DNA of 64,000 nt from Trypanosoma brucei (lineage: Eukaryota): positions 1,024,001 to 1,088,000 of the forward strand of contig AE017150.2 in assembly GCA_000002445.1 (NCBI GenBank). The letters are read 5' to 3'. Within the stretch, counting starts at the first letter, position 1, and every line of letters begins with the position of its first letter. Under the pieces are notes generated by a model. It saw only the letters and a program-made list of their open reading frames with translations, did not search any database and had not been told where the DNA came from. Shown piece by piece: positions 19,001 through 47,805 of this stretch. Position numbers and translations under genes: made by a program.

Positions 19001-19301
19001 CTCCCCCCCTAACCAACCAGTGGTGAATACGAAGGGAGTACATGCCATGAGAATGTCTCCACAAAGCGGCAGGTTTAAGGCAGGGAGCGCACGGGGCGGA
19101 GGGTCGCTGATTGCCGGATCTGACCCCGTTCGCGCATCGCTTCCCCGAGTGGATCTTTTGAAGGTGGGTGAGTTGCTTGCGCTGATGCGCCGGCGACAGT
19201 TGGAAGAGGGGTCCACTCGCCTTCCACCTTTGACTGGGAGGGCACAACCCTACCCCAGTTGTGCCCCCAGTACCGTAAAGCGATATGTGGGATCAAAGTG
19301 A
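10074..19301 (+). CDS. FLAM8: Giant repetitive flagellar protein, consistent with flagellar member 8 (FLAM8)
   Basis: A single ORF; from the first in-frame ATG (10074) it encodes exactly 3075 aa. It contains 17 divergent copies of an ~85-aa module ([HY]RVKF.G.NW..V.....AFD.AFD.DVC.ALGLPRGSVED..L..DG..V.FGVRHP.SL...D....L..C.F.N...LY), plus a block of 20-aa PPLKAAEAEQSSLKAAETKR repeats. The identification rests on the size match and on neighbouring genes (SBPase, SPT6, SmD2, HSP100), recalled from memory of the T. brucei chromosome 2 locus, not on a database search. Confidence 0.65.
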   Translation: MGEADAPSGGQESNYLPVAAVVNSGSASGSGAHRGPRHQRERSGGNENTENVPPLPKTGLTNASFVRLEDPRDIGEATSTEILSEPDDEEEHLVTYHGVKLNGDNWVDVLRGSRAVFDDALGADVCDMLALPRSSVRDVKVGADGQSVMFGVRHPFSLQKDEVNKALESCRFTSTLKLYDLQTDSGPLETDSPVLKASESAPPSLRDEESSQHGDIKGASSVKKIKPRNHNIGACSITGHSASVEVLYGAIYDEDAAVTHHRVKFNGNNWDSIVHHKGMAIREAFDTDVSNALGLPRGSVEDVTLAPDGLSMSFSVRHPASLRRKDVNKILAKCPFENTWRLYESKKSFNNSRVASFVLRSSVNAPPSLRAEEDVGVVLGDWDANPPFEFLVPATASQMTVVRPPNAASGECNINSMPDDILINTEGEGFGTVTRHEVKFEGDNWGVVHEKKRVAFDEAFDADICGALGVPRGSVEDMVLASDGQLVSFGVRHPASLGKKDINKALSSCPFENTWKLYEPKKSASPSELNSPVMKATKGELAPLRAGEVVGPTPLEVGGPRDLAADGATAKTSGQPVDVETNVLTRHRVKFHGDNWGVVHEKKRVAFDEAFDADICGALGVPRGSVEDMVLASDGQLVSFGVRHPASLGKKDINKALSSCPFENTWKLYEPKKSASPSELNSPVMKATKGELAPLRAGEVVGPTPLEVGGPRDLAADGATAKTSGQPVDVETNVLTRHRVKFHGDNWGVVHEKKRVAFDEAFDADICGALGVPRGSVEDMVLASDGQLVSFGVRHPASLGKKDINKALSSCPFENTWKLYEPKKSASPSELNSPVMKATKGELAPLRAGEVVGPTPLEVGGPRDLAADGATAKTSGQPVEREDGCVTSHALKLEGDNWGAVYEKKRAAFDEAFDADICDTLGVPRGSVEDMVLASDGQLVSFGVRHPASLGKKDINKALSSCPFENTWKLYEPKKSASPSELNSPVMKATKGELAPLRAGEVVGPTPLEVGGPRDLAADGATAKTSGQPVEREDGCVTSHALKLEGDNWGAVYEKKRAAFDEAFDADICDTLGVPRGSVEDMVLASDGQLVSFGVRHPASLGKKDINKALSSCPFENTWKLYEPKKSASPSRFDSLVLMTTKGELAPLRAEEEAAGPLPDASDAFPSATAAVSNLLPAKAIRSRYFSSGECNITTSGATPIALYGALCDSDTVVTRHRVRFNGENWDLVLQRRRAELDDALDADVSEALDLPRGSVSDIEYVPDGLTASFGVRHPAAFRRRDIARLLSKGQFANLWKMYPRSRNIDTLGPSLSSLKASEKAPPNIVGGEVVPPVPNFCQSRAKVDAAGLPTRASDTVTPSDYTNGQQSVMKTEKRGSVVDGGDTIITCHRVKLSGANWVEVVETKRAAFDEAFDTDVCEALGFPLGCVEDVLLGPDGHSVTFAVRHSASLQKSDVKKVLRLCPFANTLQLYHSRRTLPSSEVASTVLRATEKEKPAPTPRSHGSAKPSTVKVAASCDLEGRGADGDPAFVEVFNGLISDEDTLVTRHGVLLNGENWLKLHESKSAAFNDAFDADVCEALGLPCGNVEGIKLNPDGHLVTFGVRHPISQRREDINRALGKCRYQNLMKLYNSRSAVYSCVATSPMLRATETARAALATQESISQPAVSEVANTTSVGVAKSRNLLDGSAAASNSASVAGLHAFLSDQPVVTQHGIKFSGANWADVIEGRAMFDDALDADVCEAVGLPRGSVEDILLSSDGRSVAFGVRHPASISKGDINQALDNCRFVNTLRLYNMRSAVYSCVAKSPMLRATETARAALATQESISQPAVSEVANTTSVGVAKSRNLLDGSAAASNSASVAGLHAFLSDQPVVTQHGIKFSGANWADVIEGRAMFDDALDADVCEAVGLPRGSVEDILLSSDGRSVAFGVRHPASISKGDINQALDNCRFVNTLRLYVSRCPPVVYEASRPPLKAAEAEQLSLKAAETKRPPLKAAEAEQSSLKAAETKRPPLKATEAEQSSLKAAETKRPPLKAAEAEQSSLKAAETKRPPLKAAEVGRPPLKATEAEQSSLKAAETKRPPLKAAEVGRPPLKATEAEQSSLKAAETKRPPLKATEAEQSPLKVTEARRAPPARATEVERPPLKVVEISSPTSFVAGPRSVGLVNPPSLVDTGIIGSSSASFDILYGSLKDEGAVVTEYRAKLNGSHWRVLLQHRFLEFEEAFYGDVCDALSLTKGSVDNMELDSDMQAFSFGVRHRRSLEPSAVLRQLGEYHFSKTREFCDSQKRFGVVVDDHDQLLTLEIASKQELPEADDGCDEDLRHLQTSGRSDLPSSPSSPLCIKKTNTRTMHFGNTGAGAVRLPKTRKYEAAPANATVTQHRVQFVAENCGHVADETREKVPQALNLDVCDALGISWKCVEEVTLSPDGRLVTFGVRHSPKMSRADVRSALIAHDFPYTWKVYEPDTLVEFESGVERTTAEQKSQATPKATSTSSIYFSPSSVPPFVRVAEPQNFVKDSFTISNTASLEVLHTAIGDGTVVTKHRVKFNGDNWGAVLEKKRAAFDEAFDADVCDALDLPRGSVEGITLGSDGLSIDFGVRHPASLHKDEVDHFLSTSEFPAMWNLYEPKKKVLSSIVMGDTEERETTSFSTSLPQRASPVSAKEFPSCLHPAPGVASSSVPMDRADGASGSGNVCHLYRVGFVGGFWSGIVDKRFTAAVDCFMRDAAVGEGLVPRSVERVVSLDSGNVVFSVWMEHAAALSQSEVCTAMDNAPFPSMWKLYDDLINEGVVGRTTTLHRVGLVGSEWAHVANVDLVKEVFIQDVAEALRLSPEDINVNEYTVNDKLVIGFYVSHSHTLTEVDIDDMLANAPLSRVWGLCPVPGTNSWKAAHCKGSARSNSGSFPHTEPLRGGRFRDLSPIPLSGGIPAETPHDRRSNSQYRRSLGPLQGVVSPPMRRYDGHNQHSGRFYQANKRSPGQFSPPNQPVVNTKGVHAMRMSPQSGRFKAGSARGGGSLIAGSDPVRASLPRVDLLKVGELLALMRRRQLEEGSTRLPPLTGRAQPYPSCAPSTVKRYVGSK
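11385..13470 (+). repeat. 453-bp (151-aa) near-identical tandem repeats within FLAM8, about 4.6 copies in two sub-variants
   Basis: The string gacaattggggtgttgtgcatgagaagaagcgtgttgc recurs at 11400, 11853 and 12306 (spacing 453). A variant, gacaattggggtgctgtgtatgaaaagaagcgtgctgc, occurs at about 12759 and about 13212. Confidence 0.85.
14960..15945 (+). repeat. 492-bp (164-aa) perfect tandem duplication within FLAM8 (2 copies)
   Basis: ctgctgtttattcctgtgtcgcca occurs at 14971 and 15463, and the encoded 164-aa segment (YNSRSAVYSCVA...NTLRLY) is duplicated exactly. Confidence 0.85.
15981..16500 (+). repeat. 60-bp (20-aa) tandem repeats with 30-bp half-unit variants, encoding RPPLKAAEAEQSSLKAAETK
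   Basis: cgaccaccactaaaggctgctgaggctgagcaatcgtcactaaaggctgctgaaacgaag is repeated about 8 times, with Ala/Thr and Glu-Ala-Glu-Gln/Val-Gly variants. Confidence 0.85.
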
Positions 19302-20013: not shown

Positions 20014-20039
20014 ATATATATATATATATATATATATAT
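20014..20039. repeat. (TA)n microsatellite. Similar tracts lie at 5847-5868, 20652-20677, 20982-21009, 22049-22070, 23429-23442, 58114-58141 and 63846-63866, and a (GT)n tract at 23443-23461.
   Basis: Read directly from the sequence. Such microsatellites are typical of trypanosome intergenic regions. Confidence 0.9.
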
Positions 20040-20978: not shown

Positions 20979-21013
<35 letters not shown>

Positions 21014-35595: not shown

Positions 35596-38500
35596 ATGGT
35601 TGCCACGGAACAATCAAGAAGAGGACAAGATCCGTGTGGAGATGTAACCGACATACGAAAACCCTCCTCAATAGAGGCAGCGGAGCCTTCAGACTATTCG
35701 TCAAGCTCAGGCAATAGAGGTGAGGGCGGACGCGAATCTCGGGGTATTTGGGCATTCAAACGTGCATCATTAGTTTCGGTACCACAAACTCCCAAAACAC
35801 ATCAAGCTAGCTGGTCAACGAGCAATAGAGAAGGAAGAGGAGGAGGAAACAGACATCGTGTGTCATGGCACCAACATCTCGATCCCCATCCTAACACAGG
35901 AGCTTCGGTAGATGATGGAGCAACTTTCTGGAAAGTTCCTCGTAAAGTTTCTGAGGATCCTGAAGATAATATGTCGACTACACACTCAATTTCCACGAGT
36001 GTATCGGATCCAGTCTCCCCATCAGCAGCAAATGTGGTAGTCAAGTCTGCGACCGCCGAAAATATTTGTGTTGGAGCTTCAACCGACGGGGAAATGAAAG
36101 CAATGCCTCACAGTATGCTGCTTGATGGGGAAGTGTGGGAGTACATATATCTTAGAAAATCGTCAGAACTGCGGGATGCCTTTGCTTCTGATATTGGCGA
36201 TGTGTTAGGTTTTCCTTTTTCGACACCCATTGAGTTTACACCCACAAGAACTGGAATATTAGCGCACTGCACATTACTGTATCCTGAGACCATGAAAACT
36301 GAAGAGCTATACGAGAGGTTATCGCGAGACAAATTTCCCGCGATGAGAAGACTATATCAAACAGCAAAACGAGAGCACATGATAACAAGTTGCTCGACGA
36401 TGTACACCACGAACATTTCTGACAGGCCCATAAGTCCATCGCCGGAAGATATGGACGGACGCCGAGGCAGCATGCAAATGATGTCTTCTGCAACTAGTAC
36501 AAACCATAAACCTGAAGAATATTGTCTGTCAAAAAGGGAAGAAAGTAGAGATGCAACAAAAGAAGATGCGACGGGAATGGACACCGAATCGCAAGAAATT
36601 CATTATAGTCGTTTCACCGAACGGTCTATGAGTCGCATATCCATGGTTCCTGCTGATATCCGTGAGGCTGGTATGTCTAAGAGCCATGTTGTGACATCGC
36701 GTGCAGCCAGTCCCAGATGTGCCAAATGTCTTGATCAGTCTATGAGTCACATATCCATGGTTCCTGCTGATGTCCGTGAGGCTGGTATGTCTAAGAGCCA
36801 TGTTGAGCCATCGCGTGCAGCCAGTCCCAGATGTGCCAAATGTCTTGATCAGTCTATGAGTCGTATATCCATGGTTCCTGCTGATATCCGTGAGGCTGGT
36901 ATGTCTAAGAGCCATGTTGTGACATCGCGTGCAGCCAGTCCCAGATGTGCCAAATGTCTTGATCAGTCTATGAGTCACATATCCATGGTTCCTGCTGATA
37001 TCCGTGAGGCTGGTATGTCTAAGAGTGAGGTTGAACCATCTTTAGCAGCCAGTCTGAAATGTGGCAAATGTCTTGATCAGTCTATGAGTCGCATATCCAC
37101 ATTGCCTGCTGATATCCGTGAGGCTGGTATGTCTAAGAGCCATGTTGTGACATCGCGTGCAGCCAGTCCCAGATGTGCCAAATGTCTTGATCAGTCTATG
37201 AGTCGCCCATCCACATTGCCTGCTGATATCCGTGAGGCTGGTATGTCTAAGAGCCATGTTGTGACATCGCGTGCAGCCAGTCCCAGATGTGCCAAATGTC
37301 TTGATCAGTCTATGAGTCGCCAATCGACATTGCCTGCTGATATCCGTGAGGCTGGTATGTCTAAGAGTGAGGTTGAGCCATCTTTAGCAGCCAGTCTGAA
37401 ATGTGGCAAATGTCTTGATCAGTCTATGAGTCGCATATCTATGATGCCTGCTGATGTCCGTGAGGCTGGTATGTCTAAGAGTGAGGTTGAGCCATCTTTA
37501 GCAGCCAGTCTGAAATGTGGCAAGTGTCTTGGTCAGTCTATGAGTCGCATATCTATGATGCCTGCTGATGTCCGTGAGGCTGGTATGTCTAAGAGCCATG
37601 TTGTGACATCGCGTGCAGCCAGTCCCAGATGTGCCAAATGTCTTGATCAGTCTATGAGTCGCATATCTATGATGCCTGCTGATGTCCGTGAGGCTGGTAT
37701 GTCTAAGAGCCATGTTGTGACATCGCGTGCAGCCAGTCCCAGATGTGCCAAATGTCTTGATCAGTCTATGAGTCGCATATCTATGATGCCTGCTGGTGTC
37801 CGTGAGGCTGGTATGTCTAAGAGCCATGTTGTGACATCGCGTGCAGCCAGTCCCAGATGTGCCAAATGTCTTGATCAGTCTATGAGTCGCATATCTATGA
37901 TGCCTGCTGATGTCCGTGAGGCTGGTATGTCTAAGAGCCATGTTGTGACATCGCGTGCAGCCAGTCCCAGATGTGCCAAATGTCTTGATCAGTCTATGAG
38001 TCGCATATCTATGATGCCTGCTGATGTCCGTGAGGCTGGTATGTCTAAGAGCCATGTTGTGACATCGCGTGCAGCCAGTCCCAGATGTGCCAAATGTCTT
38101 GATCAGTCTATGAGTCACATATCCATGGTTCCTGCTGATGTCCGTGAGGCTGGTATGTCTAAGAGCCATGTTGTGACATCGCGTGCAGCCAGTCCCAGAT
38201 GTGCCAAATGTCTTGATCAGTCTATGAGTCACATATCCATGGTTCCTGCTGATGTCCGTGAGGCTGGTATGTCTAAGAGCCATGTTGTGACATCGCGTGC
38301 AGCCAGTCCCAGATGTGCCAAATGTCTTGATCAGTCTATGAGTCGCATATCTATGATGCCTGCTGATGTCCGTGAGGCTGGTATGTCTAAGAGCCATGTT
38401 GTGACATCGCGTGCAGCCAGTCCCAGATGTGCCAAATGTCTTGATCAGTCTATGAGTCGCTCATCCACATTGCCTGCTGATGTCCGTGAGGCTGGTATGT

Positions 38501-39324
38501 CTAAGAGCCATGTAGTGACATCGCGTGCAGCCAGTCCCAGATGTGCCAAATGTCTTGATCAGTCTATGAGTCGCATATCTATGATGCCTGCTGATGTCCG
38601 TGAGGCTGGTATGTCTAAGAGCCATGTTGTGACATCGCGTGCAGCCAGTCCCAGATGTGCCAAATGTCTTGATCAGTCTATGAGTCGCATATCCACATTG
38701 CCTGCTGATATCCGTGAGGCTGGTATGTCTAAGAGCCATGTTGTGACATCGCGTGCAGCCAGTCCCAGATGTGCCAAATGTCTTGATCAGTCTATGAGTC
38801 ACATATCCATGGTTCCTGCTGATGTCCGTGAGGCTGGTATGTCTAAGAGTGAGGTTGAACCATCTTTAGCAGCCAGTCTGAGATGTGCCAAATGTCTTGA
38901 TCAGTCTATGAGTCGCATATCCACATTGCCTGCTGATATCCGTGAGGCTGGTATGTCTAAGAGCCATGTTGTGACATCGCGTGCAGCCAGTCCCAGATGT
39001 GCCAAATGTCTTGATCAGTCTATGAGTCGCATATCTATGATGCCTGCTGATGTCCGTGAGGCTGGTATGTCTAAGAGCCATGTTGTGACATCGCGTGCAG
39101 CCAGTCCCAGATGTGCCAAATGTCTTGATCAGTCTATGAGTCGCATATCCACATTGCCTGCTGATATCCGTGAGGCTGGTATGTCTAAGAGCCATGTTGT
39201 GACATCGCGTGCAGCCAGTCCCAGATGTGCCAAATGTCTTGATCAGTCTATGAGTCACATATCCATGGTTCCTGCTGATGTCCGTGAGGCTGGTATGTCT
39301 AAGAGTGAGGTTGAGCCATCGTGA
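35596..39324 (+). CDS. 38-aa-repeat protein, part 1: unique N-terminus, an NW/AFD-type domain, then about 24 copies of a 38-aa repeat; ends at an in-frame TGA inside a repeat
   Basis: ATG at 35596. The unique region is followed by the domain DGEVWEYIYLRKSSELRDAFASDIGDVLGFPFSTPIEFTPTRTGILAHCTLLYPE...LY, then 114-bp repeats encoding SMSRISMMPADVREAGMSKSHVVTSRAASPRCAKCLDQ. The architecture (more than 50 38-aa repeats) is reminiscent of trypanosome MARP-type microtubule-associated repetitive proteins, but I cannot confirm identity. Confidence 0.6.
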   Translation: MVATEQSRRGQDPCGDVTDIRKPSSIEAAEPSDYSSSSGNRGEGGRESRGIWAFKRASLVSVPQTPKTHQASWSTSNREGRGGGNRHRVSWHQHLDPHPNTGASVDDGATFWKVPRKVSEDPEDNMSTTHSISTSVSDPVSPSAANVVVKSATAENICVGASTDGEMKAMPHSMLLDGEVWEYIYLRKSSELRDAFASDIGDVLGFPFSTPIEFTPTRTGILAHCTLLYPETMKTEELYERLSRDKFPAMRRLYQTAKREHMITSCSTMYTTNISDRPISPSPEDMDGRRGSMQMMSSATSTNHKPEEYCLSKREESRDATKEDATGMDTESQEIHYSRFTERSMSRISMVPADIREAGMSKSHVVTSRAASPRCAKCLDQSMSHISMVPADVREAGMSKSHVEPSRAASPRCAKCLDQSMSRISMVPADIREAGMSKSHVVTSRAASPRCAKCLDQSMSHISMVPADIREAGMSKSEVEPSLAASLKCGKCLDQSMSRISTLPADIREAGMSKSHVVTSRAASPRCAKCLDQSMSRPSTLPADIREAGMSKSHVVTSRAASPRCAKCLDQSMSRQSTLPADIREAGMSKSEVEPSLAASLKCGKCLDQSMSRISMMPADVREAGMSKSEVEPSLAASLKCGKCLGQSMSRISMMPADVREAGMSKSHVVTSRAASPRCAKCLDQSMSRISMMPADVREAGMSKSHVVTSRAASPRCAKCLDQSMSRISMMPAGVREAGMSKSHVVTSRAASPRCAKCLDQSMSRISMMPADVREAGMSKSHVVTSRAASPRCAKCLDQSMSRISMMPADVREAGMSKSHVVTSRAASPRCAKCLDQSMSHISMVPADVREAGMSKSHVVTSRAASPRCAKCLDQSMSHISMVPADVREAGMSKSHVVTSRAASPRCAKCLDQSMSRISMMPADVREAGMSKSHVVTSRAASPRCAKCLDQSMSRSSTLPADVREAGMSKSHVVTSRAASPRCAKCLDQSMSRISMMPADVREAGMSKSHVVTSRAASPRCAKCLDQSMSRISTLPADIREAGMSKSHVVTSRAASPRCAKCLDQSMSHISMVPADVREAGMSKSEVEPSLAASLRCAKCLDQSMSRISTLPADIREAGMSKSHVVTSRAASPRCAKCLDQSMSRISMMPADVREAGMSKSHVVTSRAASPRCAKCLDQSMSRISTLPADIREAGMSKSHVVTSRAASPRCAKCLDQSMSHISMVPADVREAGMSKSEVEPS

Positions 39325-40053
39325 GCAGCCAGTCTGAGATGTGCCAAATGTCTTGATCAGTCTATGAGTCGCATATCCACATTGCCTGCTGATATCCGTG
39401 AGGCTGGTATGTCTAAGAGCCATGTTGTGACATCGCGTGCAGCCAGTCCCAGATGTGCCAAATGTCTTGATCAGTCTATGAGTCGCATATCTATGATGCC
39501 TGCTGATGTCCGTGAGGCTGGTATGTCTAAGAGCCATGTTGTGACATCGCGTGCAGCCAGTCCCAGATGTGCCAAATGTCTTGATCAGTCTATGAGTCGC
39601 ATATCCACATTGCCTGCTGATATCCGTGAGGCTGGTATGTCTAAGAGCCATGTTGTGACATCGCGTGCAGCCAGTCCCAGATGTGCCAAATGTCTTGATC
39701 AGTCTATGAGTCACATATCCATGGTTCCTGCTGATGTCCGTGAGGCTGGTATGTCTAAGAGCCATGTTGTGACATCGCGTGCAGCCAGTCCCAGATGTGC
39801 CAAATGTCTTGATCAGTCTATGAGTCGCTCATCGACATTGCCTGCTGATGTCCGTGAGGCTGGTATGTCTAAGAGTGAGGTTGAACCATCTTTAGCAGCC
39901 AGTCTGAGATGTGCCAAATGTCTTGATCAGTCTATGAGTCGCTCATCGACATTGCCTGATGATGTCCGTGAGGCTGGTATGTCTAAGAGTGAGGTTGAAC
40001 CATCTTTAGCAGCCAGTTCCAGATGTGCCAAATGTCTTGATCAGTCTATGAGT
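36616..40053 (+). repeat. 114-bp tandem repeat array 1, about 30 copies; the SHVVTSRAASPRCAK subfamily predominates
   Basis: tctatgagtcgcatatcc recurs at 114-bp intervals (for example 36625 and 36739). The array reads through the stop at 39322. Confidence 0.9.
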
Positions 40054-43000
40054 GTTGGGTCTGATTTTGTTTCTGTTTTGTTAGTTGGTGGTGTAAATGA
40101 AGTTGGCAACGACCGCTCTGGTTTCCAAAGGAAACGGTACCCCGTGTCGTGGCACAAACATTGTGATGGTCCTTCGCCGTTGCGATCTTTGTGTGATGAT
40201 GGGGCAACTTTCTGGAAAGTTCCTCGTAAAGTTTCTGAGGATCCTGAAGATAATATGTCGACTGCACACTCAATTTCCACGAGTGTATCGGATCCAGTCT
40301 CCCCATCAGCAGTAAATGTGGTGGTAAAGTACAGTGGAGCCGAAAATATTTGTGTTGGAGCTTCAACCGACGGGGAAATGAAAGCAATGCCTCACACCAT
40401 GCTGCTTGATGGGGAAGTGTGGGAGTACATATATCTTAGAAAATCGTCAGAACTGCGGGATGCCTTTGCTTCTGATATTGGCGATGTGTTAGGTTTTCCT
40501 TTTTCGACACCCATTGAGTTTACACCCACAAGAACTGGAATATTAGCGCACTGTACATTACTGTATCCTGAGACCATGAAAACTGAAGAGCTATACGAGA
40601 GGTTATCGCGAGACAAATTTCCCGCGATGAGAAGACTATATCAAACAGCAAAACGAGAGCAGATGATAACAAGTTGCTCGACGATGTACACCACGAACAT
40701 TTGTGACAGGCCCATAAGTCCACCGCCGGAAGATATGGACGGACGCCGAGGCAGCATGCAAATGATGTCTTCTGCAACTAGTACAAACCATAAACCTGAA
40801 GAATATTGTCTGTCAAAAAGGGAAGAAAGAAGAGATGCAACTAAAGAAGATGCGACGGGAATGGACACCGAATCGCAAGAAATTCATTATAGTCGTTTCA
40901 CCGAACGGTCTATGAGTCGCATATCCATGGTTCCTGCTGATGTCCGTGAGGCTGGTATGTCTAAGAGTGAGGTTGAACCATCTTTAGCAGCCAGTCTGAG
41001 ATGTGCCAAATGTCTTGATCAGTCTATGAGTCACATATCTATGATGCCTGCTGATGTCCGTGAGGCTGGTATGTCTAAGAGTGAGGTTGAGCCATCTTTA
41101 GCAGCCAGTCTGAGATGTGCCAAATGTCTTGATCAGTCTATGAGTCGCATATCTATGATGCCTGCTGATGTCCGTGAGGCTGGTATGTCTCAGAGCCAAA
41201 TTGGAACATTACCCGCAACTATTCCCGTTTATTGCCCACAATTGCTTGAGCGCTGTATGAGCTGTGCTTCTACTATACTTGCTGATGTCCGTGAGGCTGG
41301 TATGTCTCAGAGCCAGATTGGAACATTACCCGCAAGTATTCCCGTTTATTGCCCACAATTGCTTGAGCGCTGTATGAGCTGTGCTTCTACTATACTTGCT
41401 GATGTCCGTGAGGCTGGTATGTCTCAGAGCCAGATTGGAACATTACCCGCAACTATTCCCGTTTATTGCCCACAATTGCTTGAGCGCTGTATGAGCTGTG
41501 CTTCTACTATACTTGCTGATGTCCGTGAGGCTGGTATGTCTCAGAGCCAGATTGGAACATTACCCGCAACTATTCCCGTTTATTGCCCACAATTGCTTGA
41601 GCGCTGTATGAGCTGTGCTTCTACTATACTTGCTGATGTCCGTGAGGCTGGTATGTCTAAGAGTGAGGTTGAACCATCTTTAGCAGCCAGTCCCAGATGT
41701 GCCAAATGTCTTGATCAGTCTATGAGTCGCATATCTATGATGCCTGCTGATGTCCGTGAGGCTGGTATGTCTAAGAGTGAGGTTGAACCATCTTTAGCAG
41801 CCAGTCTGAGATGTGGCAAATGTCTTGATCAGTCTATGAGTCGCATATCTATGATGCCTGCTGATATCCGTGAGGCTGGTATGTCTAAGAGTGAGGTTGA
41901 ACCATCTTTAGCAGCCAGTCTGAAATATGGCAAATGTCTTGATCAGTCTATGAGTCGCATATCTATGATGCCTGCTGATGTCCGTGAGGCTGGTATGTCT
42001 AAGAGTGAGGTTGAACCATCTTTAGCAGCCAGTCTGAGATGTGGCAAATGTCTTGATCAGTCTATGAGTCGCATATCTATGATGCCTGCTGATATCCGTG
42101 AGGCTGGTATGTCTAAGAGTGAGGTTGAACCATCTTTAGCAGCCAGTCTGAGATGTGGCAAATGTCTTGATCAGTCTATGAGTCGCATATCTATGATGCC
42201 TGCTGATGTCCGTGAGGCTGGTATGTCTAAGAGTGAGGTTGAACCATCTTTAGCAGCCAGTCTGAGATGTGGCAAATGTCTTGATCAGTCTATGAGTCGC
42301 ATATCTATGATGCCTGCTGATGTCCGTGAGGCTGGTATGTCTAAGAGTGAGGTTGAACCATCTTTAGCAGCCAGTCTGAGATGTGCCAAATGTCTTGATC
42401 AGTCTATGAGTCGCATATCTATGATGCCTGCTGATATCCGTGAGGCTGGTATGTCTAAGAGTGAGGTTGAACCATCTTTAGCAGCCAGTCTGAAATATGG
42501 CAAATGTCTTGATCAGTCTATGAGTCGCATATCTATGATGCCTGCTGATGTCCGTGAGGCTGGTATGTCTAAGAGTGAGGTTGAACCATCTTTAGCAGCC
42601 AGTCTGAGATGTGCCAAATGTCTTGATCAGTCTATGAGTCGCATATCTATGATGCCTGCTGATATCCGTGAGGCTGGTATGTCTAAGAGTGAGGTTGAAC
42701 CATCTTTAGCAGCCAGTCTGAAATATGGCAAATGTCTTGATCAGTCTATGAGTCGCATATCTATGATGCCTGCTGATATCCGTGAGGCTGGTATGTCTAG
42801 GAGTGAGGTTGAACCATCTTTAGCAGCCAGTCTGAAATATGGCAAATGTCTTGATCAGTCTATGAGTCGCATATCTATGATGCCTGCTGATGTCCGTGAG
42901 GCTGGTATGTCTAAGAGTGAGGTTGAACCATCTTTAGCAGCCAGTCTGAAATATGGCAAATGTCTTGATCAGTCTATGAGTCGCATATCTATGATGCCTG

Positions 43001-45342
43001 CTGATATCCGTGAGGCTGGTATGTCTAGGAGTGAGGTTGAACCATCTTTAGCAGCCAGTCTGAAATGTGGCAAATGTCTTGATCAGTCTATGAGTCGCAT
43101 ATCTATGATGCCTGCTGATGTCCGTGAGGCTGGTATGTCTAAGAGTGAGGTTGAACCATCTTTAGCAGCCAGTCTGAAATATGGCAAATGTCTTGATCAG
43201 TCTATGAGTCGCATATCTATGATGCCTGCTGATATCCGTGAGGCTGGTATGTCTAGGAGTGAGGTTGAACCATCTTTAGCAGCCAGTCTGAAATGTGGCA
43301 AATGTCTTGATCAGTCTATGAGTCGCATATCTATGATGCCTGCTGATGTCCGTGAGGCTGGTATGTCTAAGAGTGAGGTTGAACCATCTTTAGCAGCCAG
43401 TCTGAAATATGGCAAATGTCTTGATCAGTCTATGAGTCGCATATCTATGATGCCTGCTGATGTCCGTGAGGCTGGTATGTCTAAGAGTGAGGTTGAACCA
43501 TCTTTAGCAGCCAGTCTGAAATGTGGCAAATGTCTTGATCAGTCTATGAGTCGCATATCCATGATGCCTGCTGATGTCCGTGAGGCTGGTATGTCTAAGA
43601 GTGAGGTTGAACCATCTTTAGCAGCCAGTCTGAAATATGGCAAATGTCTTGATCAGTCTATGAGTCGCATATCTATGATGCCTGCTGATGTCCGTGAGGC
43701 TGGTATGTGTAAAAGGGGTGAAGCGGAGTCACTTGTTGTTAGTTCAAATAGCCGTGAGGTTAATGGTGGTGTTAAGAATTTATCCAGTGGTAATTCTTCT
43801 GCATCGTTGGACGGTAGGAAGTTTGTTTGTTCGTCGGGCAAAAGTGGTGATTATTCCGCTTCTTTCGGTGACGGTGGTTGTTGTCAAATCGTCGGTGGTG
43901 CTGAAGCGGGTGGTGTTGTTGTCTTAGAGGAATTTCGAGACATACCGAGTGGTGCTGGTTCGAATTTACCGGTACCTGTTGATGAAGTTCCTGGCGGTGG
44001 TGTGAGAATGTCGTCCGATGTTGATAAAAGCGTTTCCGGTGGCTTGTTAGAAGTATTAAAGAATTGTTCGTCTTCCAGGGGAGGTGAAAGTTTTCCGTTA
44101 GTTGCAGTTCAAGCGCTGGCGAGTCGCCAGTCTGAAAATCGCCAACCGGTGCGATGCTCTTTCAATTCTGTTGCTGAAGGCAGGTACTACGACTCGGGTC
44201 TTTTGGATGAGCGTAACGATTGGTGCGTTCCTCCCCGTGGTGTGATGCAGGGTGCAGTTGGCAGCGCACTGTGTCTTGTAAGGGGCGTTGGCGCGGTTAA
44301 TTTTGATGGATCGCCGGACATAAGCGTCACTTCTGTGGCTTCTTCTGTTGGTGATAAAGTGCCTTCGATGATTAGAGGTGAACAACGCAGGGCGAGCACC
44401 AACAGTGCTTTGCCAGATGTCGTGCCGAAAGTTGCTGACCCACCTCTTGAAGCTCCGGTTTCTTTAATTGAGGGTGAAAAAGTGTCTGTGGCCTGGGAGT
44501 CACAATTTGGGGGTAGTGCAGATCCAAAGGAGCGTTTTCTGGATCTCTCTACAACACCTCAGCATGAAAATCCGTCTCGGTTTCTCTCAAGAATGGGTAG
44601 CCTCTGTCGTTGGGGCCTCGGGTCGCAGAAGGCAAAATGTGAGGACAGCGCGGAGACGCTGAAGCGATGGGCGCAGGATAGTACCAAATATCTTATAGGA
44701 GTTCAGGAACCGGACACCGTTGCGGAGGAGTTGCCGTCCCTATCAGATGCCCGCGGAATGCCACCAATGGTGAAAGCTAGTAGCTCGTCGGATAAAAATT
44801 TCTCGCAACTTGGTCCTTTTGACACAAGCAATGGGGACCATAAGGGAGAGGAACTGACCACTTTAAGGAGGTGGTCAAAGAGTAATCAAGGGAAGAGTAT
44901 TGCCGGCAGTGGTACGGAGGAACCACGTAGCATAGCAACAAGGAATTCAGATCCAAATCTGCCTCTGTTGCGGATTCGCAAAAGTGCCAGTGGTTCGCCA
45001 CTGCTTCCGCTGGCTACGGGTGACAAAGGCCTTGCAAAGTGGGAAGATGATGGCGTCACTTCGTTACCCCCCATTATATCTCAGAGCGCAAACACTCCGC
45101 TTGGGTGCGATGCCGCTTCAAAACGGAGAGTAGGTGACAGTTACGTTTGGGATATACGCGATGTGAGCATGTCGTCGGCTTCCCCTAACACCTCTTATCT
45201 GGACATTGAGGCTGAGGGTGAAGCGTTCGATATATTCAAACGCCTCTTGCACGATATTGATGTTGCAAGTCGAGCCATCTCTAAGCCTGTACAAGCGCTT
45301 AGAGAGCTGCGTGACGGGAGGAAGTATGAAAATTCCTCGTGA
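39364..45342 (+). CDS. 38-aa-repeat protein, part 2 (same frame, immediately downstream of the TGA): repeats, a second copy of the N-terminal domain, about 25 more repeats, and a unique 545-aa Ser/Gly-rich C-terminus
   Basis: The ORF is continuous in the same frame as part 1 and is interrupted only by the TGA at 39322-39324. It may be one gene (35596-45342) broken by a sequencing error or real nonsense mutation, or two tandem paralogues merged in assembly. There is no independent ATG/UTR for this half. Confidence 0.4.
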   Translation: MSRISTLPADIREAGMSKSHVVTSRAASPRCAKCLDQSMSRISMMPADVREAGMSKSHVVTSRAASPRCAKCLDQSMSRISTLPADIREAGMSKSHVVTSRAASPRCAKCLDQSMSHISMVPADVREAGMSKSHVVTSRAASPRCAKCLDQSMSRSSTLPADVREAGMSKSEVEPSLAASLRCAKCLDQSMSRSSTLPDDVREAGMSKSEVEPSLAASSRCAKCLDQSMSVGSDFVSVLLVGGVNEVGNDRSGFQRKRYPVSWHKHCDGPSPLRSLCDDGATFWKVPRKVSEDPEDNMSTAHSISTSVSDPVSPSAVNVVVKYSGAENICVGASTDGEMKAMPHTMLLDGEVWEYIYLRKSSELRDAFASDIGDVLGFPFSTPIEFTPTRTGILAHCTLLYPETMKTEELYERLSRDKFPAMRRLYQTAKREQMITSCSTMYTTNICDRPISPPPEDMDGRRGSMQMMSSATSTNHKPEEYCLSKREERRDATKEDATGMDTESQEIHYSRFTERSMSRISMVPADVREAGMSKSEVEPSLAASLRCAKCLDQSMSHISMMPADVREAGMSKSEVEPSLAASLRCAKCLDQSMSRISMMPADVREAGMSQSQIGTLPATIPVYCPQLLERCMSCASTILADVREAGMSQSQIGTLPASIPVYCPQLLERCMSCASTILADVREAGMSQSQIGTLPATIPVYCPQLLERCMSCASTILADVREAGMSQSQIGTLPATIPVYCPQLLERCMSCASTILADVREAGMSKSEVEPSLAASPRCAKCLDQSMSRISMMPADVREAGMSKSEVEPSLAASLRCGKCLDQSMSRISMMPADIREAGMSKSEVEPSLAASLKYGKCLDQSMSRISMMPADVREAGMSKSEVEPSLAASLRCGKCLDQSMSRISMMPADIREAGMSKSEVEPSLAASLRCGKCLDQSMSRISMMPADVREAGMSKSEVEPSLAASLRCGKCLDQSMSRISMMPADVREAGMSKSEVEPSLAASLRCAKCLDQSMSRISMMPADIREAGMSKSEVEPSLAASLKYGKCLDQSMSRISMMPADVREAGMSKSEVEPSLAASLRCAKCLDQSMSRISMMPADIREAGMSKSEVEPSLAASLKYGKCLDQSMSRISMMPADIREAGMSRSEVEPSLAASLKYGKCLDQSMSRISMMPADVREAGMSKSEVEPSLAASLKYGKCLDQSMSRISMMPADIREAGMSRSEVEPSLAASLKCGKCLDQSMSRISMMPADVREAGMSKSEVEPSLAASLKYGKCLDQSMSRISMMPADIREAGMSRSEVEPSLAASLKCGKCLDQSMSRISMMPADVREAGMSKSEVEPSLAASLKYGKCLDQSMSRISMMPADVREAGMSKSEVEPSLAASLKCGKCLDQSMSRISMMPADVREAGMSKSEVEPSLAASLKYGKCLDQSMSRISMMPADVREAGMCKRGEAESLVVSSNSREVNGGVKNLSSGNSSASLDGRKFVCSSGKSGDYSASFGDGGCCQIVGGAEAGGVVVLEEFRDIPSGAGSNLPVPVDEVPGGGVRMSSDVDKSVSGGLLEVLKNCSSSRGGESFPLVAVQALASRQSENRQPVRCSFNSVAEGRYYDSGLLDERNDWCVPPRGVMQGAVGSALCLVRGVGAVNFDGSPDISVTSVASSVGDKVPSMIRGEQRRASTNSALPDVVPKVADPPLEAPVSLIEGEKVSVAWESQFGGSADPKERFLDLSTTPQHENPSRFLSRMGSLCRWGLGSQKAKCEDSAETLKRWAQDSTKYLIGVQEPDTVAEELPSLSDARGMPPMVKASSSSDKNFSQLGPFDTSNGDHKGEELTTLRRWSKSNQGKSIAGSGTEEPRSIATRNSDPNLPLLRIRKSASGSPLLPLATGDKGLAKWEDDGVTSLPPIISQSANTPLGCDAASKRRVGDSYVWDIRDVSMSSASPNTSYLDIEAEGEAFDIFKRLLHDIDVASRAISKPVQALRELRDGRKYENSS
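40905..43710 (+). repeat. 114-bp tandem repeat array 2, about 24.6 copies; the SEVEPSLAASL[RK][CY][GA]K subfamily predominates, with four 117-bp variant units at about 41190-41650
   Basis: Same period. The variant unit encodes SQSQIGTLPATIPVYCPQLLERCMSCASTILADVREAGM (39 aa; gctgatgtcc at 41281 and 41398, spacing 117). Confidence 0.9.
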
Positions 45343-47805
45343 TGATTGTGTTGTTATTGTTGTGTTAAAGTTGTCTCTTTTTGTTCTTCTCTTTTTGTCT
45401 GTTTTACTAAACTGATTTCTGTTGTGTCGGTTGTTTTTGCCGACCAGGTTAGGTGACATATAGAAGTGCAAATATTCATCTGGTTGTGTGTCTTTTTCCT
45501 TGTTTTTCTCCTATATTCTGATACAAACAAGCATATGTACCCTCATTTCTCTTGTCTCCCCCTCGTTGTTTTACGTTTATTTGGTGTATATTTCTGTTTG
45601 TATATGCATGTACTCGGGGTGAGACATTGATGCTTCTTTAATTTGCGCTGGCTGTAGTTTCCTACTTTGTTTCCACTTTGCTGTGAGGTTTTTGTTTTGT
45701 TTTTTGTTTTATGTTTTTTCTGAATTATCTTGTCAGGTGTTTATTCACTCTGCCTCATTCCATTACGTTTCTGCGTTTTCCCTAGCCCCTGTTTTGCGGT
45801 TCCATTCCCCTTGTTCTTGTTCTTGTGATTTTGCTCTCGGTTTCTTTATTGAGTTGCAGCGTGTATTTGGATACATATGTATGTTCTCATATGTTTACGC
45901 CATAAGACCCCGCATGCACATATTTTTTTCTGTGAAAGTACACAAGTTAATGCATGCGTACCCGCGGAGGTGATGCATTATTATACCCACCTCAACTTTG
46001 TTTTACTTTTTTACTTTTTTTCTTTTGTCTTTTTGTTACGGTGTTCCCATAATTATGATCATATTTCCCATATTTCCTTTTGTTTTTTTTCAAATTCTTC
46101 CCACCACGATTTTACTGTTTTAGGCGACTTTTTTGTGTTTCGGTGGTTAAATGCCGTTTCATTTTCGCTTGACAGCTCTCTTCTTTTTCTTTTTTTTTTT
46201 AGTGAAAAAAAAATAATTCTTTAATTTGTTTAAAAAACAACACAACACAACACAGAATCACCAAATGAGATAAAACTATTAGATAATACGGGTGGCAGCG
46301 GCAAGTTGTGTCCGTGTGTGTCTGTTTGTGGTTGCGAAGGACTCACCGCAATTTTTTTTTTATTTTGATGAGATCAAAAGAAAAAAAAAGAAAAGAAAGG
46401 TACCATATATTTTTATTTCAAGAGATTTAACTTTTCCCAAACCAAGCTGGTTGCTTGTTGCTTTTCTTTTCTTTTCTTTTTTTTACCCCTTTGTTTTTGT
46501 TCCCTCTGACTCTCTCTCTCTCTTTCTCTCTCTCTGTTTATTTGCTTTTTATTTCGTTTGTTTCAACTGATTGGGTTAACAAAAAATGGGGTAGATAAAA
46601 GTATAAAAAGATTGAGCGGAATGATTTCATGTGAGTGAGTGTTATGAATGAACATATCGAGGTGAGGATGAACAACAGCAACAAAAAGAGAAAAAAAAAT
46701 GTACAAGAGAGAGAAGAAAGCAAACAAATATAAAAAAAAAGGGAATTTATGTACCATCCCATACGTAGAGGAGGAGGAGGAGGTTGTGTTAAATTGAAGT
46801 GAGATAGTATGAGTTTAAAGAAACAAAATCATAATCTTGATGATGGTAACAAAAATTGTACATGACCGTTGCGACGAAAGTACAGGTAAAAATGAAGTGA
46901 AGCGAGAGGGGTGGAAAGGAAGGGAAAAGAATCAAACAGCTCGTTCCTACACACATGTTAAATGTTTATATAAATTAATGTGTGTACATATGTGTATAAG
47001 TAGGATACGGATGTAGTTACGCCATAAATTCTGACGCGAGGGAAGGCGCAGAGGAGTGGCGTAATAGGAAAGTAAATTTAATCGGGGTAACAACTGCAGC
47101 CCCCCCCCCCCAAAAAAAAAGAAATATAATGATGCATACACAGGTGTCTGCATTTGTATGCAACTGAGGATGTGTATAACTTTTTTTCTTTTTTTTCTTT
47201 TTCTCTTGTGCGTGCTAGCTTTTTCACTTTTTATTTTGTCCTTGTCCTTCTTCTATTTTACGTTTTCTCTCGCAATTAATCTGCGCCACGACAGCAGAGT
47301 CTCCTTTTTTTTTGTTTTCGTCCACTCACTGTAGGAAACCATTTTGTCTCCCGACCCTCTCTACTCCTTTCCCGTGATACGAAATGGCTAAACATGCGCG
47401 TACATGAGAGCGCGGTAAATGAAGTGTAAAAAAAAAAAGGGAATCGGGAGAGGTACACGCCATGAGTTGTGTGTTAGCAATATGAGGAGCGTACGACTTA
47501 TTTCAGCGAGTGATTGTAGTTTGTGGAAGTGAAACTGACATTACTGTGGAGTGCAGTTACTCGGGATAATCCGTCACTCACCCACTCACTAAATTTATTA
47601 TTATTATTATTGTTATGATTAACGTGTTGTTTGGTACTTTTGTTTTTGTTCCTATTTCAGTCATCTGCATCTATTTCCCCTCTTTTTAAAAAAAAAATTT
47701 ATCTTGATTCCCTCTTTTGTTAGTGCCGTGTCCAGTACATCGTTGCAGAAGAACGTAAAAAGGGAGCGGCGCGACGGTGCTTTTGCATCAGTCGGTACGT
47801 TTTAC

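What the first reader, a model, noticed from the sequence alone, without database searches (positions are those of the whole stretch)
36616..43710. About 55 copies of a 38-aa repeat, each with a CxxC pair; two subfamilies and a higher-order 228-bp periodicity
The unit SMSRISMMPADVREAGMSKS[HE]V[VE][TP]S[RL]AAS[PL][RK]C[AG]KCLDQ carries a conserved C-x-x-C. The pair degenerates to KYGKC in alternating units of array 2, where ADV/ADI and MSKSE/MSRSE variants also alternate between about 42400 and 43700, giving a 2-unit (228-bp) super-repeat. Array 1 is dominated by the 'SHVVTSRAASPRCAK' variant and array 2 by 'SEVEPSLAASLRC[AG]K', so each array was homogenised independently. The 38-aa period and copy number recall the T. 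brucei MARP microtubule-associated repetitive proteins, but this locus is apparently distinct from the MARP genes.
Basis: partly seen in the sequence, partly recalled or inferred. Interest (0 to 1): 0.5.

Follow-up and report, generated by a model that had tools for sequence, protein, structure and literature searches.

The report
Known trypanosome flagellar-tip repeat protein
The 55 repeats are real, but they are the body of one already annotated Trypanosoma brucei gene (Tb927.2.5860 and Tb927.2.5870, wrongly split in the reference genome) that encodes a giant flagellar-tip protein unrelated to the MARP proteins.

Summary
There are 55 copies of a 114-bp (38-aa) unit in two arrays (30 and 24.5 units). 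They fall into two subfamilies, and array 2 has a significant 228-bp super-repeat.

The window is T. brucei TREU927 chromosome 2. Both arrays lie in one 3,248-codon reading frame (35596-45342), broken only by a single TGA at 39322. The two halves are Tb927.2.5860 and Tb927.2.5870. Published work shows one 2,788-aa gene in Lister 427 and flagellar-tip localisation only when the full-length protein is tagged. Both halves are also the top hits in an adenylate-cyclase tip proximity proteome.

The architecture is [FAZ1_cons domain + array] twice, followed by a tail with a conserved C-terminal helix. The same domain occurs 17 times in the tip scaffold FLAM8, 16 kb upstream.

The unit has no similarity to the MARP-type unit beyond its 38-aa length. 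The CxxC pair is present in 93% of T. brucei units. Syntenic T. vivax has 38-aa repeats without it, and about half of the T. congolense units have RxxC. AlphaFold predicts disordered repeats. A zinc-binding role is therefore poorly supported. The most likely role is a disordered multivalent spacer in a tip scaffold. The gene is already known and its function is untested.

The parts
35596..45342 (+). One reading frame of 3,248 codons, annotated as Tb927.2.5860 (35596-39324, 1,242 aa) and Tb927.2.5870 (39364-45342, 1,992 aa). It is a single gene for a flagellar-tip protein.
   Evidence: ORFs are in the same frame. The 1,242-aa length equals that of Tb927.2.5860 in Cosentino et al. Table S2. Lister 427 has a single 2,788-aa CDS, and TrypTag data support one gene. 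DAL972 reads through the equivalent region.
35596..36624 (+). Head 1 (343 aa). It is Ser/Thr-rich and contains one FAZ1_cons domain at about 36109-36363.
   Evidence: Pfam PF23398 scores 39.7 bits against a cut-off of 27.5. phmmer hits FLAM8 domain copies at E about 5e-9. AlphaFold pLDDT is 85-95 for the domain and below 50 for its flanks.
36625..40044 (+). Array 1: 30 units of 38 aa, 23 H-type and 7 E-type, all with CxxC. Net charge is positive.
38677..39588 (+). Two 456-bp (4-unit) blocks that differ at only 3 clustered bases. They are the core of a 4-unit super-repeat in distal array 1.
39322..39324 (+). In-frame TGA, the only interruption of the frame. It is a mosaic codon: T and A as in the E-type TTA, and G as in the H-type CGT. 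It is one of three A/T-to-G changes within 9 nt relative to the sister block.
   Evidence: No in-frame stop is seen in the assembled parts of the DAL972 arrays or in the Lister 427 CDS.
40045..40908 (+). A 150-nt linker plus head 2. The stretch 40195-40908 is 98.2% identical to 35911-36624 and contains a second FAZ1_cons domain at about 40393-40647.
40909..43710 (+). Array 2: 24.5 units, E-type. Eight units carry KYGKC instead of K/RCxKC.
41137..41604 (+). Four 39-aa variant units (CMSCASTILADVREAGMSQSQIGTLPATIPVYCPQLLER). They keep the ADVREAGMS core and carry a shifted CMSC pair.
   Evidence: DAL972 has 2 copies and T. b. equiperdum has 4.
42403..43656 (+). The stretch of array 2 with the clearest 228-bp (2-unit) super-repeat.
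43711..45342 (+). Tail (543 aa), mostly predicted disordered. It has conserved islands (YYDSGLLDERNDW, DPKERF) and a conserved C-terminal helix at about 45196-45318.
   Evidence: The C-terminal 84 aa are 39% identical to T. vivax (E = 1e-12). AlphaFold gives helix 496-536 at pLDDT 64-83 and below 50 elsewhere.
10074..19301 (+). Context: FLAM8 (Tb927.2.5760, XP_951724, 3,075 aa), a flagellar-tip scaffold with 17 FAZ1_cons domains in the same transcription unit.

Best explanation
The two arrays are the bulk of one giant protein of the Trypanosoma brucei flagellar distal tip. It is about 357 kDa as assembled here, and its size varies between strains. The TREU927 reference annotates it as two genes, Tb927.2.5860 and Tb927.2.5870, because of a single TGA inside array 1.

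The architecture is [FAZ1_cons alpha/beta domain + 38-aa array] twice, followed by a tail that ends in a conserved helix. The ancestral form, still seen in T. vivax, has one head, one array and the tail.

Shown: the identity of the gene, its single-gene status, its tip localisation and its proximity to tip adenylate cyclase. These rest on published experiments that I matched to this sequence.

Inferred:
- The small folded parts (the FAZ1_cons domains shared with the tip scaffold FLAM8, and the C-terminal helix) dock the protein at the tip. Both ends are needed for this.
- The 38-aa arrays are intrinsically disordered, Ser-rich, multivalent spacers. Their copy number and sequence drift by unequal crossing-over and gene conversion, while the period and a short core (D-V/I-R-E-A-G-M-S-x-S) are retained.
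- The CxxC pair is a lineage-specific feature of the T. brucei and T. congolense units. The second Cys is the constrained one. It is not a zinc-finger-type module.
For: Identity. Fourteen neighbouring ORFs are exact matches to records that include T. b. brucei TREU927 entries on a 1,193,948-bp contig: Tdp1, FLAM8, SBPase, an SPT6-like protein, SmD2, HSP100 and hypothetical proteins. ORF1 is 1,242 aa, the same as Tb927.2.5860 in Cosentino et al. Table S2. The same table gives the gene order 5830 (307 aa), 5850 (111 aa), 5860, 5890 (452 aa).

One gene.
- Tb427_020030800 is a single 2,788-aa CDS that aligns to both TREU927 genes.
- An N-terminal tag on 5860 and a C-terminal tag on 5870 both give flagellar-tip signal. 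Tags that break the gene give cytoplasmic signal (PMC8445201).
- DAL972 has no stop. Its only break is a 100-N assembly gap, and it reads array 1, head 2, array 2 and the tail as one 2,415-aa ORF.

Tip context. 5860 and 5870 rank first and second in the AC1-APEX2 tip proximity proteome, with ratios of 15.9 and 10.7, above FLAM8 (PMC8141408).

Domain. FAZ1_cons is found in both heads, in the T. vivax orthologue and 17 times in FLAM8. [quoted passage not shown]

Disorder. AlphaFold pLDDT is below 50 over most of the repeats (block means 28-57), with only a weak helix over AKCLDQSMS. The tail is disordered except for its C-terminal helix.

Orthology of the arrays. The T. brucei E-type array aligns without gaps and in register to the T. 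vivax 38-aa array (28% identity over 138 aa, E = 2e-6). T. vivax is syntenic: the gene follows the gene with an LSM domain that matches SmD2 by position and length. T. congolense has 39-aa units.

Turnover. Array 1, array 2 copy numbers are 30, 24.5 in TREU927, at least 46, 19.5 in DAL972 and about 25.5, 17.5 in equiperdum. Lister 427 has about 42 units in total.
Against: No functional experiment exists for the repeats, so 'spacer or scaffold' is an inference from composition, predicted disorder and context.

The AlphaFold runs used shallow alignments (14 and 3 rows), so low confidence does not prove disorder.

Retention of a 38/39-aa period at only 28% identity, the invariant blocks (REAGMS, AAS, KCL.Q in 124 of 124 T. 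brucei units) and the net positive charge of array 1 could all mean a specific periodic binding function rather than a passive spacer.

The proximity proteome sampled detergent-soluble material, which fits a membrane or matrix component at least as well as an axoneme-tip scaffold.

The exact annotated boundaries of Tb927.2.5870 were not retrievable. Neither half is in the protein collection I could query.
Confidence: 0.65

Rival explanations
1. The 38-aa units form a microtubule-binding array that works like MARP or tau. It would bind the distal, plus ends of the axonemal microtubules, and the conserved period would match a lattice spacing.
For: The unit length equals that of MARP repeats, which are a proven microtubule-binding motif (PMC2289396). 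The period is kept at 38, 39 and 38 aa in three species despite only 28% identity. H-type units are basic, about +3 per unit, and array 1 carries +0.054 per residue. The protein sits where axonemal plus ends lie, and FLAM8 is positioned at the same place.
Against: There is no sequence similarity to the MARP/MAP unit (E = 9.3). Array 2 is roughly neutral. The protein was recovered in the detergent-soluble proximity proteome, which its authors contrast with proteomes of detergent-insoluble flagellum structures. The N-terminal fragment with 24 units and the C-terminal fragment with about 31 units each mislocalise to the cytoplasm and are not reported on microtubules.
Confidence: 0.15
2. The CxxC pairs are functional cysteine sites. 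They could be zinc or another metal ligand shared between neighbouring units, redox-active disulfides, or S-palmitoylation sites that tether the array to the tip membrane.
For: The second Cys is invariant in 124 of 124 T. brucei units and in 17 of 17 T. congolense units. The full CxxC is present in 115 of 124 T. brucei units. The variant 39-aa units regain a CMSC pair. Detergent solubility would fit lipid anchoring.
Against: A unit has only two Cys, plus a His in H-type units only, so no unit carries four ligands. The first Cys is Tyr in 8 TREU927 units and Arg in 8 of 17 T. congolense units. In T. vivax the aligned positions are Leu and Gly, with Cys in 6 of 53 units. AlphaFold shows no knuckle-like fold, only a weak helix across the second Cys. 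Pfam zinc-ribbon hits are below threshold, with no stretch passing on its own.
Confidence: 0.12
3. The locus really is two genes, or a pseudogene, in TREU927, because the TGA at 39322 is genuine.
For: The TGA is in the reference sequence and the annotation splits the gene there. Patchy, GC-biased conversion between H-type and E-type units could create this mosaic codon.
Against: The stop is one of three clustered A/T-to-G differences from an otherwise identical 456-bp sister block. Each new base copies the H-type base, which is what a consensus error in a collapsed Sanger assembly of mixed units would look like. No stop is seen in the assembled DAL972 arrays or in the Lister 427 CDS. The tagging pattern indicates that full-length protein is made: both terminal tags give tip signal and both gene-breaking tags give cytoplasmic signal.
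Confidence: 0.08

Closest known systems
Tb927.2.5860 / Tb927.2.5870 (= Tb427_020030800), T. brucei hypothetical flagellar-tip protein
   Same: It is the same locus. The neighbours match TREU927 chromosome 2 exactly, and ORF1 has the length of 5860 (1,242 aa). The published single-gene correction and tip localisation apply directly.
   Different: The papers I found do not describe the repeat anatomy: the two subfamilies, the super-repeats, CxxC, the duplicated FAZ1_cons head, or the orthologous arrays in T. vivax and T. congolense. No function has been tested.
MARP-1 / MARP-2 (T. brucei) and T. cruzi MAP / Ag36 / JL9
   Same: They are giant trypanosome proteins built mainly of near-identical 38-aa tandem units encoded by 114-bp repeats.
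   Different: There is no detectable sequence similarity (E = 9.3). MARPs decorate the subpellicular microtubule corset and bind microtubules through their repeats. This protein is at the flagellar tip. It also has FAZ1_cons domains.
FLAM8 (Tb927.2.5760), flagellar-tip docking protein for CARP3
   Same: It shares the FAZ1_cons domain (direct phmmer hits at E about 5e-9) and the tip localisation. It lies in the same transcription unit, 16 kb upstream, and appears in the same AC1 proximity proteome.
   Different: FLAM8 is built of 17 FAZ1_cons domains with little else. The protein here has only two such domains and is dominated by 38-aa low-complexity units.
FAZ1 (flagellum attachment zone protein 1), the founder of Pfam PF23398
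   Same: It carries a FAZ1_cons domain and is a large repetitive flagellum-associated cytoskeletal protein.
   Different: From my own knowledge, not tested here, FAZ1 lies along the attachment zone and has a different, shorter repeat. Nothing here indicates attachment-zone localisation.
Syntenic orthologues: T. vivax KAH8615927.1 / UPI000218BEFC and T. congolense CCD16651.1
   Same: The architecture is the same: FAZ1_cons head, 38/39-aa array and tail with a conserved C-terminus. The T. vivax gene sits in the same position, after the gene with an LSM domain.
   Different: T. vivax has one head and one array of about 65 units, with no CxxC. T. congolense has a 39-aa unit with C/RxxC. The [head + array] duplication is seen only in the T. 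brucei group.

Membership tests
MARP-1/MARP-2 microtubule-associated repetitive proteins | Tandem array of near-identical 38-aa units | tested here: met
   114-bp period, 54.5 units.
MARP-1/MARP-2 microtubule-associated repetitive proteins | Unit sequence homologous to the MARP / T. cruzi MAP consensus | tested here: not met
   BLASTP of three units against three T. cruzi MAP/Ag36 units gives a best E of 9.3. The MAP unit comes from PMC11444392. T. brucei MAP/MARP entries are listed at 48-69% identity to it in PMC12114266. The T. brucei MARP sequences themselves were not available to me.
MARP-1/MARP-2 microtubule-associated repetitive proteins | Localisation on the subpellicular microtubule corset | not testable with these tools
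   Published tagging and proximity data place this protein at the flagellar tip instead.
MARP-1/MARP-2 microtubule-associated repetitive proteins | Repeats bind microtubules | not testable with these tools
   This needs co-sedimentation or heterologous expression. The two truncated halves are reported as cytoplasmic.
FAZ1_cons (Pfam PF23398) domain proteins (FAZ1, FLAM8) | Match to the Pfam model above its gathering score | tested here: met
   Head 1 scores 39.7 bits and head 2 scores 40.7 bits against a cut-off of 27.5. The T. vivax orthologue scores 31.0 bits.
FAZ1_cons (Pfam PF23398) domain proteins (FAZ1, FLAM8) | Direct sequence similarity to domain copies of a founding member | tested here: met
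   phmmer of the head-1 domain against FLAM8 gives 15 domain hits, the best at E = 4e-9 to 1e-8. The alignment has 10 invariant columns.
FAZ1_cons (Pfam PF23398) domain proteins (FAZ1, FLAM8) | Compact folded domain | tested here: met
   AlphaFold gives a beta-alpha-beta-beta-alpha-alpha domain with pLDDT 85-95. No PDB fold match reaches E below 0.07.
Zinc-binding CxxC modules (zinc knuckle or zinc ribbon type) | Four metal ligands at fixed spacing in each module | tested here: not met
   Each unit has two Cys. A His is present only in H-type units.
Zinc-binding CxxC modules (zinc knuckle or zinc ribbon type) | Ligand residues conserved in orthologues | tested here: not met
   T. congolense has 9 CEACL and 8 REACL units. 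In T. vivax the aligned positions are L and G, with C in 6 of 53 units. Eight TREU927 units carry YxxC.
Zinc-binding CxxC modules (zinc knuckle or zinc ribbon type) | Match to a zinc-finger profile, or a compact predicted fold | tested here: not met
   Pfam zinc-ribbon and zinc-finger hits fall below their cut-offs, and no stretch passes on its own. AlphaFold pLDDT is mostly below 50, with a weak helix rather than a knuckle.
Zinc-binding CxxC modules (zinc knuckle or zinc ribbon type) | Metal actually bound | not testable with these tools
   This needs recombinant peptide and metal analysis.
Annotated gene Tb927.2.5860/5870 (Tb427_020030800) | Same chromosomal position and the same ORF | tested here: met
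   Flanking proteins match TREU927 chromosome 2 records exactly. ORF1 is 1,242 aa, the same as Tb927.2.5860. The gene order and neighbour lengths are identical in Cosentino Table S2.

The most novel reading that the evidence does not exclude
The 38-aa unit may be a period-constrained binding module rather than a passive spacer. Its length has been kept at 38, 39 and 38 aa across T. brucei, T. congolense and T. vivax, while its sequence fell to 28% identity around a small invariant core (REAGMS). It could be a previously unrecognised kind of repeat that engages a periodic partner at the axoneme tip, such as the tubulin lattice or a FLAM8 domain array. Together with FLAM8 it would define a FAZ1_cons-based scaffold that organises the tip cAMP-signalling microdomain. 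The invariant second cysteine would be a modification or contact site.
Probability: 0.15. Interest if true: 0.55.

Novelty: already known. Interest (0 to 1): 0.25.

Why it matters
The flagellar tip of T. brucei holds the adenylate cyclase, CARP3 and FLAM8 signalling microdomain that controls social motility and tsetse colonisation. This protein is the strongest hit in the cyclase proximity proteome, yet nothing is known about its function.

The anatomy worked out here gives concrete handles for truncation and knockout experiments:
- two FAZ1_cons modules shared with FLAM8;
- disordered 38-aa arrays with a small invariant core;
- a conserved C-terminal helix;
- a requirement for both ends for tip targeting.

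It also shows that the reference split into two genes rests on one suspect codon. For a genome scan, however, this is a rediscovery of an annotated, published gene. The CxxC and MARP ideas that made it look novel do not hold up.

Tried and rejected
1. The search for homologous proteins was run with ORF2, the tail and the head. All three returned nothing, not even the T. brucei proteins themselves. Neither half is in the exact-match collection either. Orthologues were therefore found through the unindexed phmmer search.

2. Four of the six hits in that search (P0025, P0026, P0029, P0030) are not relatives. They are leucine-rich-repeat-like proteins with a shorter '..SLPA.LKVGG' repeat and appear to match only on repeat composition. 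I rejected them.

3. Pfam hits on the repeats alone (AAA_lid_At3g28540, TPD1_C, CMD, SUZ and others) are summed-repeat artefacts, because no stretch passes on its own. I rejected them.

4. My first guess at gene identifiers, Tb927.2.29xx, confused HSP78 (Tb927.2.3030) with HSP100 and led nowhere. I corrected it using my recollection of the gene identifiers for SBPase, SmD2 and HSP100, plus the S13 identifier seen.

5. The repetitive flagellar antigens I2 and I17 (Imboden 1995) were a lead. A review places them on the paraflagellar rod or its axoneme linkers, not at the tip.

6. A Foldseek search of the FAZ1_cons model against the PDB gave nothing below E = 0.07.

7. The held supplements of the TrypTag paper and of the CARP3 paper do not mention these gene identifiers.

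8. T. b. equiperdum array 1 has many frameshifts consistent with assembly error. I used it only for length, not for reading-frame arguments.
Full report
OBSERVATION

Tandem Repeats Finder reports two 114-bp arrays. One lies at 36624-40053 (30.1 copies, 93% matches) and the other at 40908-43712 (24.5 copies, 95% matches). The most conserved 23-nt core of the unit occurs 55 times. All copies are on the + strand between 36661 and 43715, none lies elsewhere in the 64-kb window, and none is expected by chance.

Read in frame, array 1 is 30 units of 38 aa (36625-40044). Array 2 (40909-43710) is 2 units of 38 aa, then four 39-aa variant units (41137-41604), then 18 units of 38 aa and a partial unit.

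Two subfamilies exist. H-type units carry SHVVTSRAASPRC and E-type units carry SEVEPSLAASL[RK]C. Array 1 is 23 H and 7 E, and array 2 is 0 H and 20 E. Mean DNA identity is 0.920 within array 1, 0.964 within array 2 and 0.867 between them. The arrays have therefore been homogenised largely separately.

CxxC is present in 42 of the 50 canonical units. Eight array-2 units have KYGKC.

The 228-bp super-repeat is real in this assembly. Lag-2 identity is 99.0% against 97.9% at lag 1, and p is about 0.001 when unit order is shuffled. The finding did not mention a 456-bp (4-unit) super-repeat in distal array 1 (lag-4 identity 95.6%, p = 0.013). Its first two blocks differ at only three bases.

WHAT THE LOCUS IS

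All large ORFs in the window are on the + strand. Fourteen of them are exact matches to records that include T. brucei brucei TREU927 entries on a 1,193,948-bp contig, which I take to be chromosome 2. These include Tdp1, FLAM8 (XP_951724, 3,075 aa), sedoheptulose-1,7-bisphosphatase, an SPT6-like protein, SmD2 and HSP100.

Both arrays lie in a single frame of 3,248 codons (35596-45342). The frame is interrupted once, by a TGA at 39322-39324 in unit 23 of array 1.

The layout is:
- head 1 (343 aa);
- array 1;
- a 50-aa linker plus head 2, with 40195-40908 being 98.2% identical to 35911-36624;
- array 2;
- a 543-aa tail.

Each head contains a FAZ1_cons domain (PF23398), scoring 39.7 and 40.7 bits against a cut-off of 27.5. 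The same domain occurs 17 times in FLAM8, 16 kb upstream. The head domain hits the FLAM8 copies directly at E about 5e-9.

PUBLISHED IDENTITY

A full-text search for the gene identifiers found the locus.

Cosentino et al. 2021 (PMC8445201) report that Tb427_020030800 of Lister 427 aligns to two adjacent TREU927 genes, Tb927.2.5860 and Tb927.2.5870. [quoted passage not shown]

TrypTag data in the same paper support this. N-terminal tagging of 5860 and C-terminal tagging of 5870 both give a specific flagellar-tip signal. The two tags that break the gene give cytoplasmic signal.

Their supplementary table lists Tb927.2.5860 at 1,242 aa, exactly my ORF1. It lists the Lister 427 CDS at 2,788 aa, and the neighbours have the same lengths as in the window.

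Velez-Ramirez et al. 2021 (PMC8141408) find 5860 and 5870 as the two most enriched proteins in the APEX2 proximity proteome of the tip adenylate cyclase AC1. Both rank above FLAM8. The authors describe this proteome as composed of detergent-soluble proteins.

THE STOP CODON

Compared with its sister 456-bp block, unit 23 differs only by GAA to GAG, TCT to TCG and TTA to TGA, all within 9 nt. Each new G is the base that H-type units carry at that column, while the neighbouring columns stay E-type.

T. b. gambiense DAL972 has no stop. Its two annotated pieces are separated by a 100-N gap. The second piece reads 24 array-1 units, head 2, array 2 and the tail as one 2,415-aa ORF.

Taken with the tagging pattern, the TGA is most likely a consensus error in a Sanger assembly of mixed units, or at most a single allele. 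A patchy, GC-biased conversion event cannot be excluded.

VARIATION BETWEEN STRAINS

| Strain | Array 1 units | Array 2 units | Source |
|---|---|---|---|
| TREU927 | 30 | 24.5 | |
| DAL972 | at least 46 | 19.5 | |
| T. b. equiperdum | about 25.5 | about 17.5 | |
| Lister 427 | about 42 in total | (not separable) | |

H-type units dominate array 1 and E-type units dominate array 2 in all three sequenced loci. DAL972 and equiperdum begin array 2 with H-type units.

Over 124 canonical units from three genomes, CxxC is present in 115. YxxC occurs in 8 TREU927 units and 1 equiperdum unit. The second Cys is invariant. The blocks M2-S3, R13-E14-(A)-G16-M17-S18-(K)-S20, A27-A28-S29 and K34-C35-L36-(D)-Q38 never or almost never vary.

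Variable columns among units are not concentrated at third codon positions. Between strains, the unique regions show 6 synonymous and 4 non-synonymous changes in head 1, 2 and 7 in head 2, and 7 and 7 in the tail. Constraint on these regions is therefore weak.

ORTHOLOGUES

An unindexed phmmer search of 1.84 billion representatives found only two real relatives.

T. vivax:
- The hits are KAH8615927.1 and a 1,492-aa UniParc entry.
- The gene is syntenic. It follows a gene with an LSM domain that matches SmD2 by position and length.
- It has one FAZ1_cons head (31 bits), about 65 units of 38 aa, and a tail.
- The T. brucei E-type array aligns to its array without gaps and in register: REAGMSKSEVEPSLAASLRCGKCLDQSMSRISMMPADI over REAALASSEHPMSPAMNAKLVRCVSPQMGNDVSMTLQE (28% identity over 138 aa, E = 2e-6).
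- The first T. brucei Cys aligns with Leu. The second aligns with Gly, which is Cys in only 6 of 53 units.

T. congolense:
- The hit is CCD16651.1.
- Its units are 39 aa, VSASPAVSPSLVQRGVERPMSGASMTTSGE[C/R]EACLSRSQ.
- Nine have CEACL and eight have REACL.

The last 84 residues of the tail are 39% identical between T. brucei and T. vivax (E = 1e-12). Short islands (YFDS.LLDERSDW, GDPKERF) are shared by all three species.

The arrays are therefore orthologous. Their period has been kept while their sequence has turned over. The CxxC pair is a feature of the T. brucei and T. congolense branch, in which only the second Cys is fixed. The [head + array] duplication is seen only in the T. brucei group.

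STRUCTURE PREDICTION

I ran AlphaFold2 on head-1 residues 100-343 plus three units, using head 2 and 12 FAZ1_cons copies from FLAM8 as the alignment. It gives a confident beta-alpha-beta-beta-alpha-alpha domain (pLDDT 85-95). Everywhere else pLDDT is mostly below 50, apart from a weak helix over AKCLDQSMS at the unit junction. Foldseek finds no PDB match better than E = 0.07.

The tail is predicted disordered apart from a C-terminal helix (residues 496-536, pLDDT 64-83). That helix coincides with the conserved C-terminus. Both alignments are shallow, so low confidence is only suggestive.

Array 1 carries net positive charge (+0.054 per residue) and array 2 is neutral.

COMPARISON WITH MARP

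MARP-1 and MARP-2 consist of 38-aa units that bind microtubules (PMC2289396). The homologous T. cruzi MAP/Ag36 unit is ALPQEEQEDVGPRHVDPDHFRSTTQDAYRPVDPSAYKR (PMC11444392). T. brucei MAP/MARP entries are listed at 48-69% identity to it (PMC12114266).

Three of the present units compared with three MAP units give no alignment better than E = 9.3. The shared feature is the period only. The T. brucei MARP sequences themselves were not available to me.

MECHANISM

Shown by published experiments matched to this sequence:
- there is one gene;
- the protein is at the flagellar tip;
- it is close to AC1;
- both ends are needed for tip targeting.

Inferred:
- The FAZ1_cons modules and the C-terminal helix are the docking elements, by analogy with FLAM8. 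[quoted passage not shown]
- The 38-aa arrays are long, disordered, multivalent spacers that evolve by unequal exchange and conversion.

Rival readings are set out with their tests in the rival-explanations section. They are MARP-like microtubule binding, functional cysteines (zinc, redox or palmitate), and a genuine two-gene or pseudogene state.

VERDICT

The 'not MARP' conclusion is right. The thing itself is an annotated and published gene, and the CxxC motif is not conserved enough to carry the functional weight suggested. Interest is low to moderate. What remains open is what a tip protein made of about 55 period-conserved units actually does.

Noticed in passing
window 10074-19301 (+): This is FLAM8 (Tb927.2.5760, XP_951724, 3,075 aa), with 17 FAZ1_cons domains. 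It contains its own tandem repeats: 453 bp x 4.7 (11385-13530, 96%), 492 bp x 2 (14967-15943, 99%) and a 60/90-bp repeat (15981-16457). Two FAZ1_cons tip proteins thus sit 16 kb apart in one transcription unit.
   Followed up: partly
window 39322-39324: This is the single in-frame TGA that splits the reference annotation. It is a fine-scale mosaic of E-type and H-type bases: three A/T-to-G changes within 9 nt of an otherwise identical 456-bp block. It is either an assembly consensus error or a GC-biased micro-conversion.
   Followed up: partly
window 41137-41604: Four 39-aa variant units are embedded in array 2. They have a different C-terminal half (QSQIGTLPATIPVYCPQLLER) and a CMSC pair at the unit start. 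DAL972 has 2 copies and T. b. equiperdum has 4, so the block is old and its copy number varies.
   Followed up: partly
window 37498-38397 and 38866-39765 (- strand): Two 299-aa antisense ORFs lie inside array 1. They exist only because the repeat unit lacks stops in one antisense frame. Neither sequence is in the protein collection.
   Followed up: yes
L003 15610-15709, L006 272-7519 (T. b. gambiense DAL972): DAL972 also annotates two proteins (1,181 and 2,415 aa), but the cause is a 100-N gap in array 1. The first two units after the gap repeat the first two units of the array, which suggests a misjoin. The C-terminus of the DAL972 tail is frameshifted relative to TREU927, equiperdum and T. 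vivax.
   Followed up: partly
L004/L005 (T. b. equiperdum CM010673.1), L007 about 9972 (T. vivax SOPI01000174.1): No gene is called at this locus in the T. b. equiperdum assembly, because array 1 and head 1 contain many frameshifts. The T. vivax gene is split by a frameshift consistent with a 1-nt deletion inside its array. The gene seems to be mis-annotated in most of these assemblies.
   Followed up: partly
window 45877-46224 (+): A 115-aa ORF in the low-GC region downstream of the gene is present only as an old UniParc entry (UPI00001B536A). It is probably a discarded gene model.
   Followed up: no
window 6001-8000, 20001-22000, 46001-48000: GC content drops to 0.36-0.38 between coding blocks that run at about 0.50. 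GC skew is positive along nearly the whole window, which fits a single + strand polycistronic unit.
   Followed up: no
window 63261-63393: A TAT/TTA-rich microsatellite (21-bp and 3-bp periods) lies just downstream of the HSP100 gene.
   Followed up: no
protein search tools: The T. brucei proteins encoded at this locus could not be found in either large protein library, although all their neighbours are present. Highly repetitive products may be missing from, or filtered out of, these collections.
   Followed up: no
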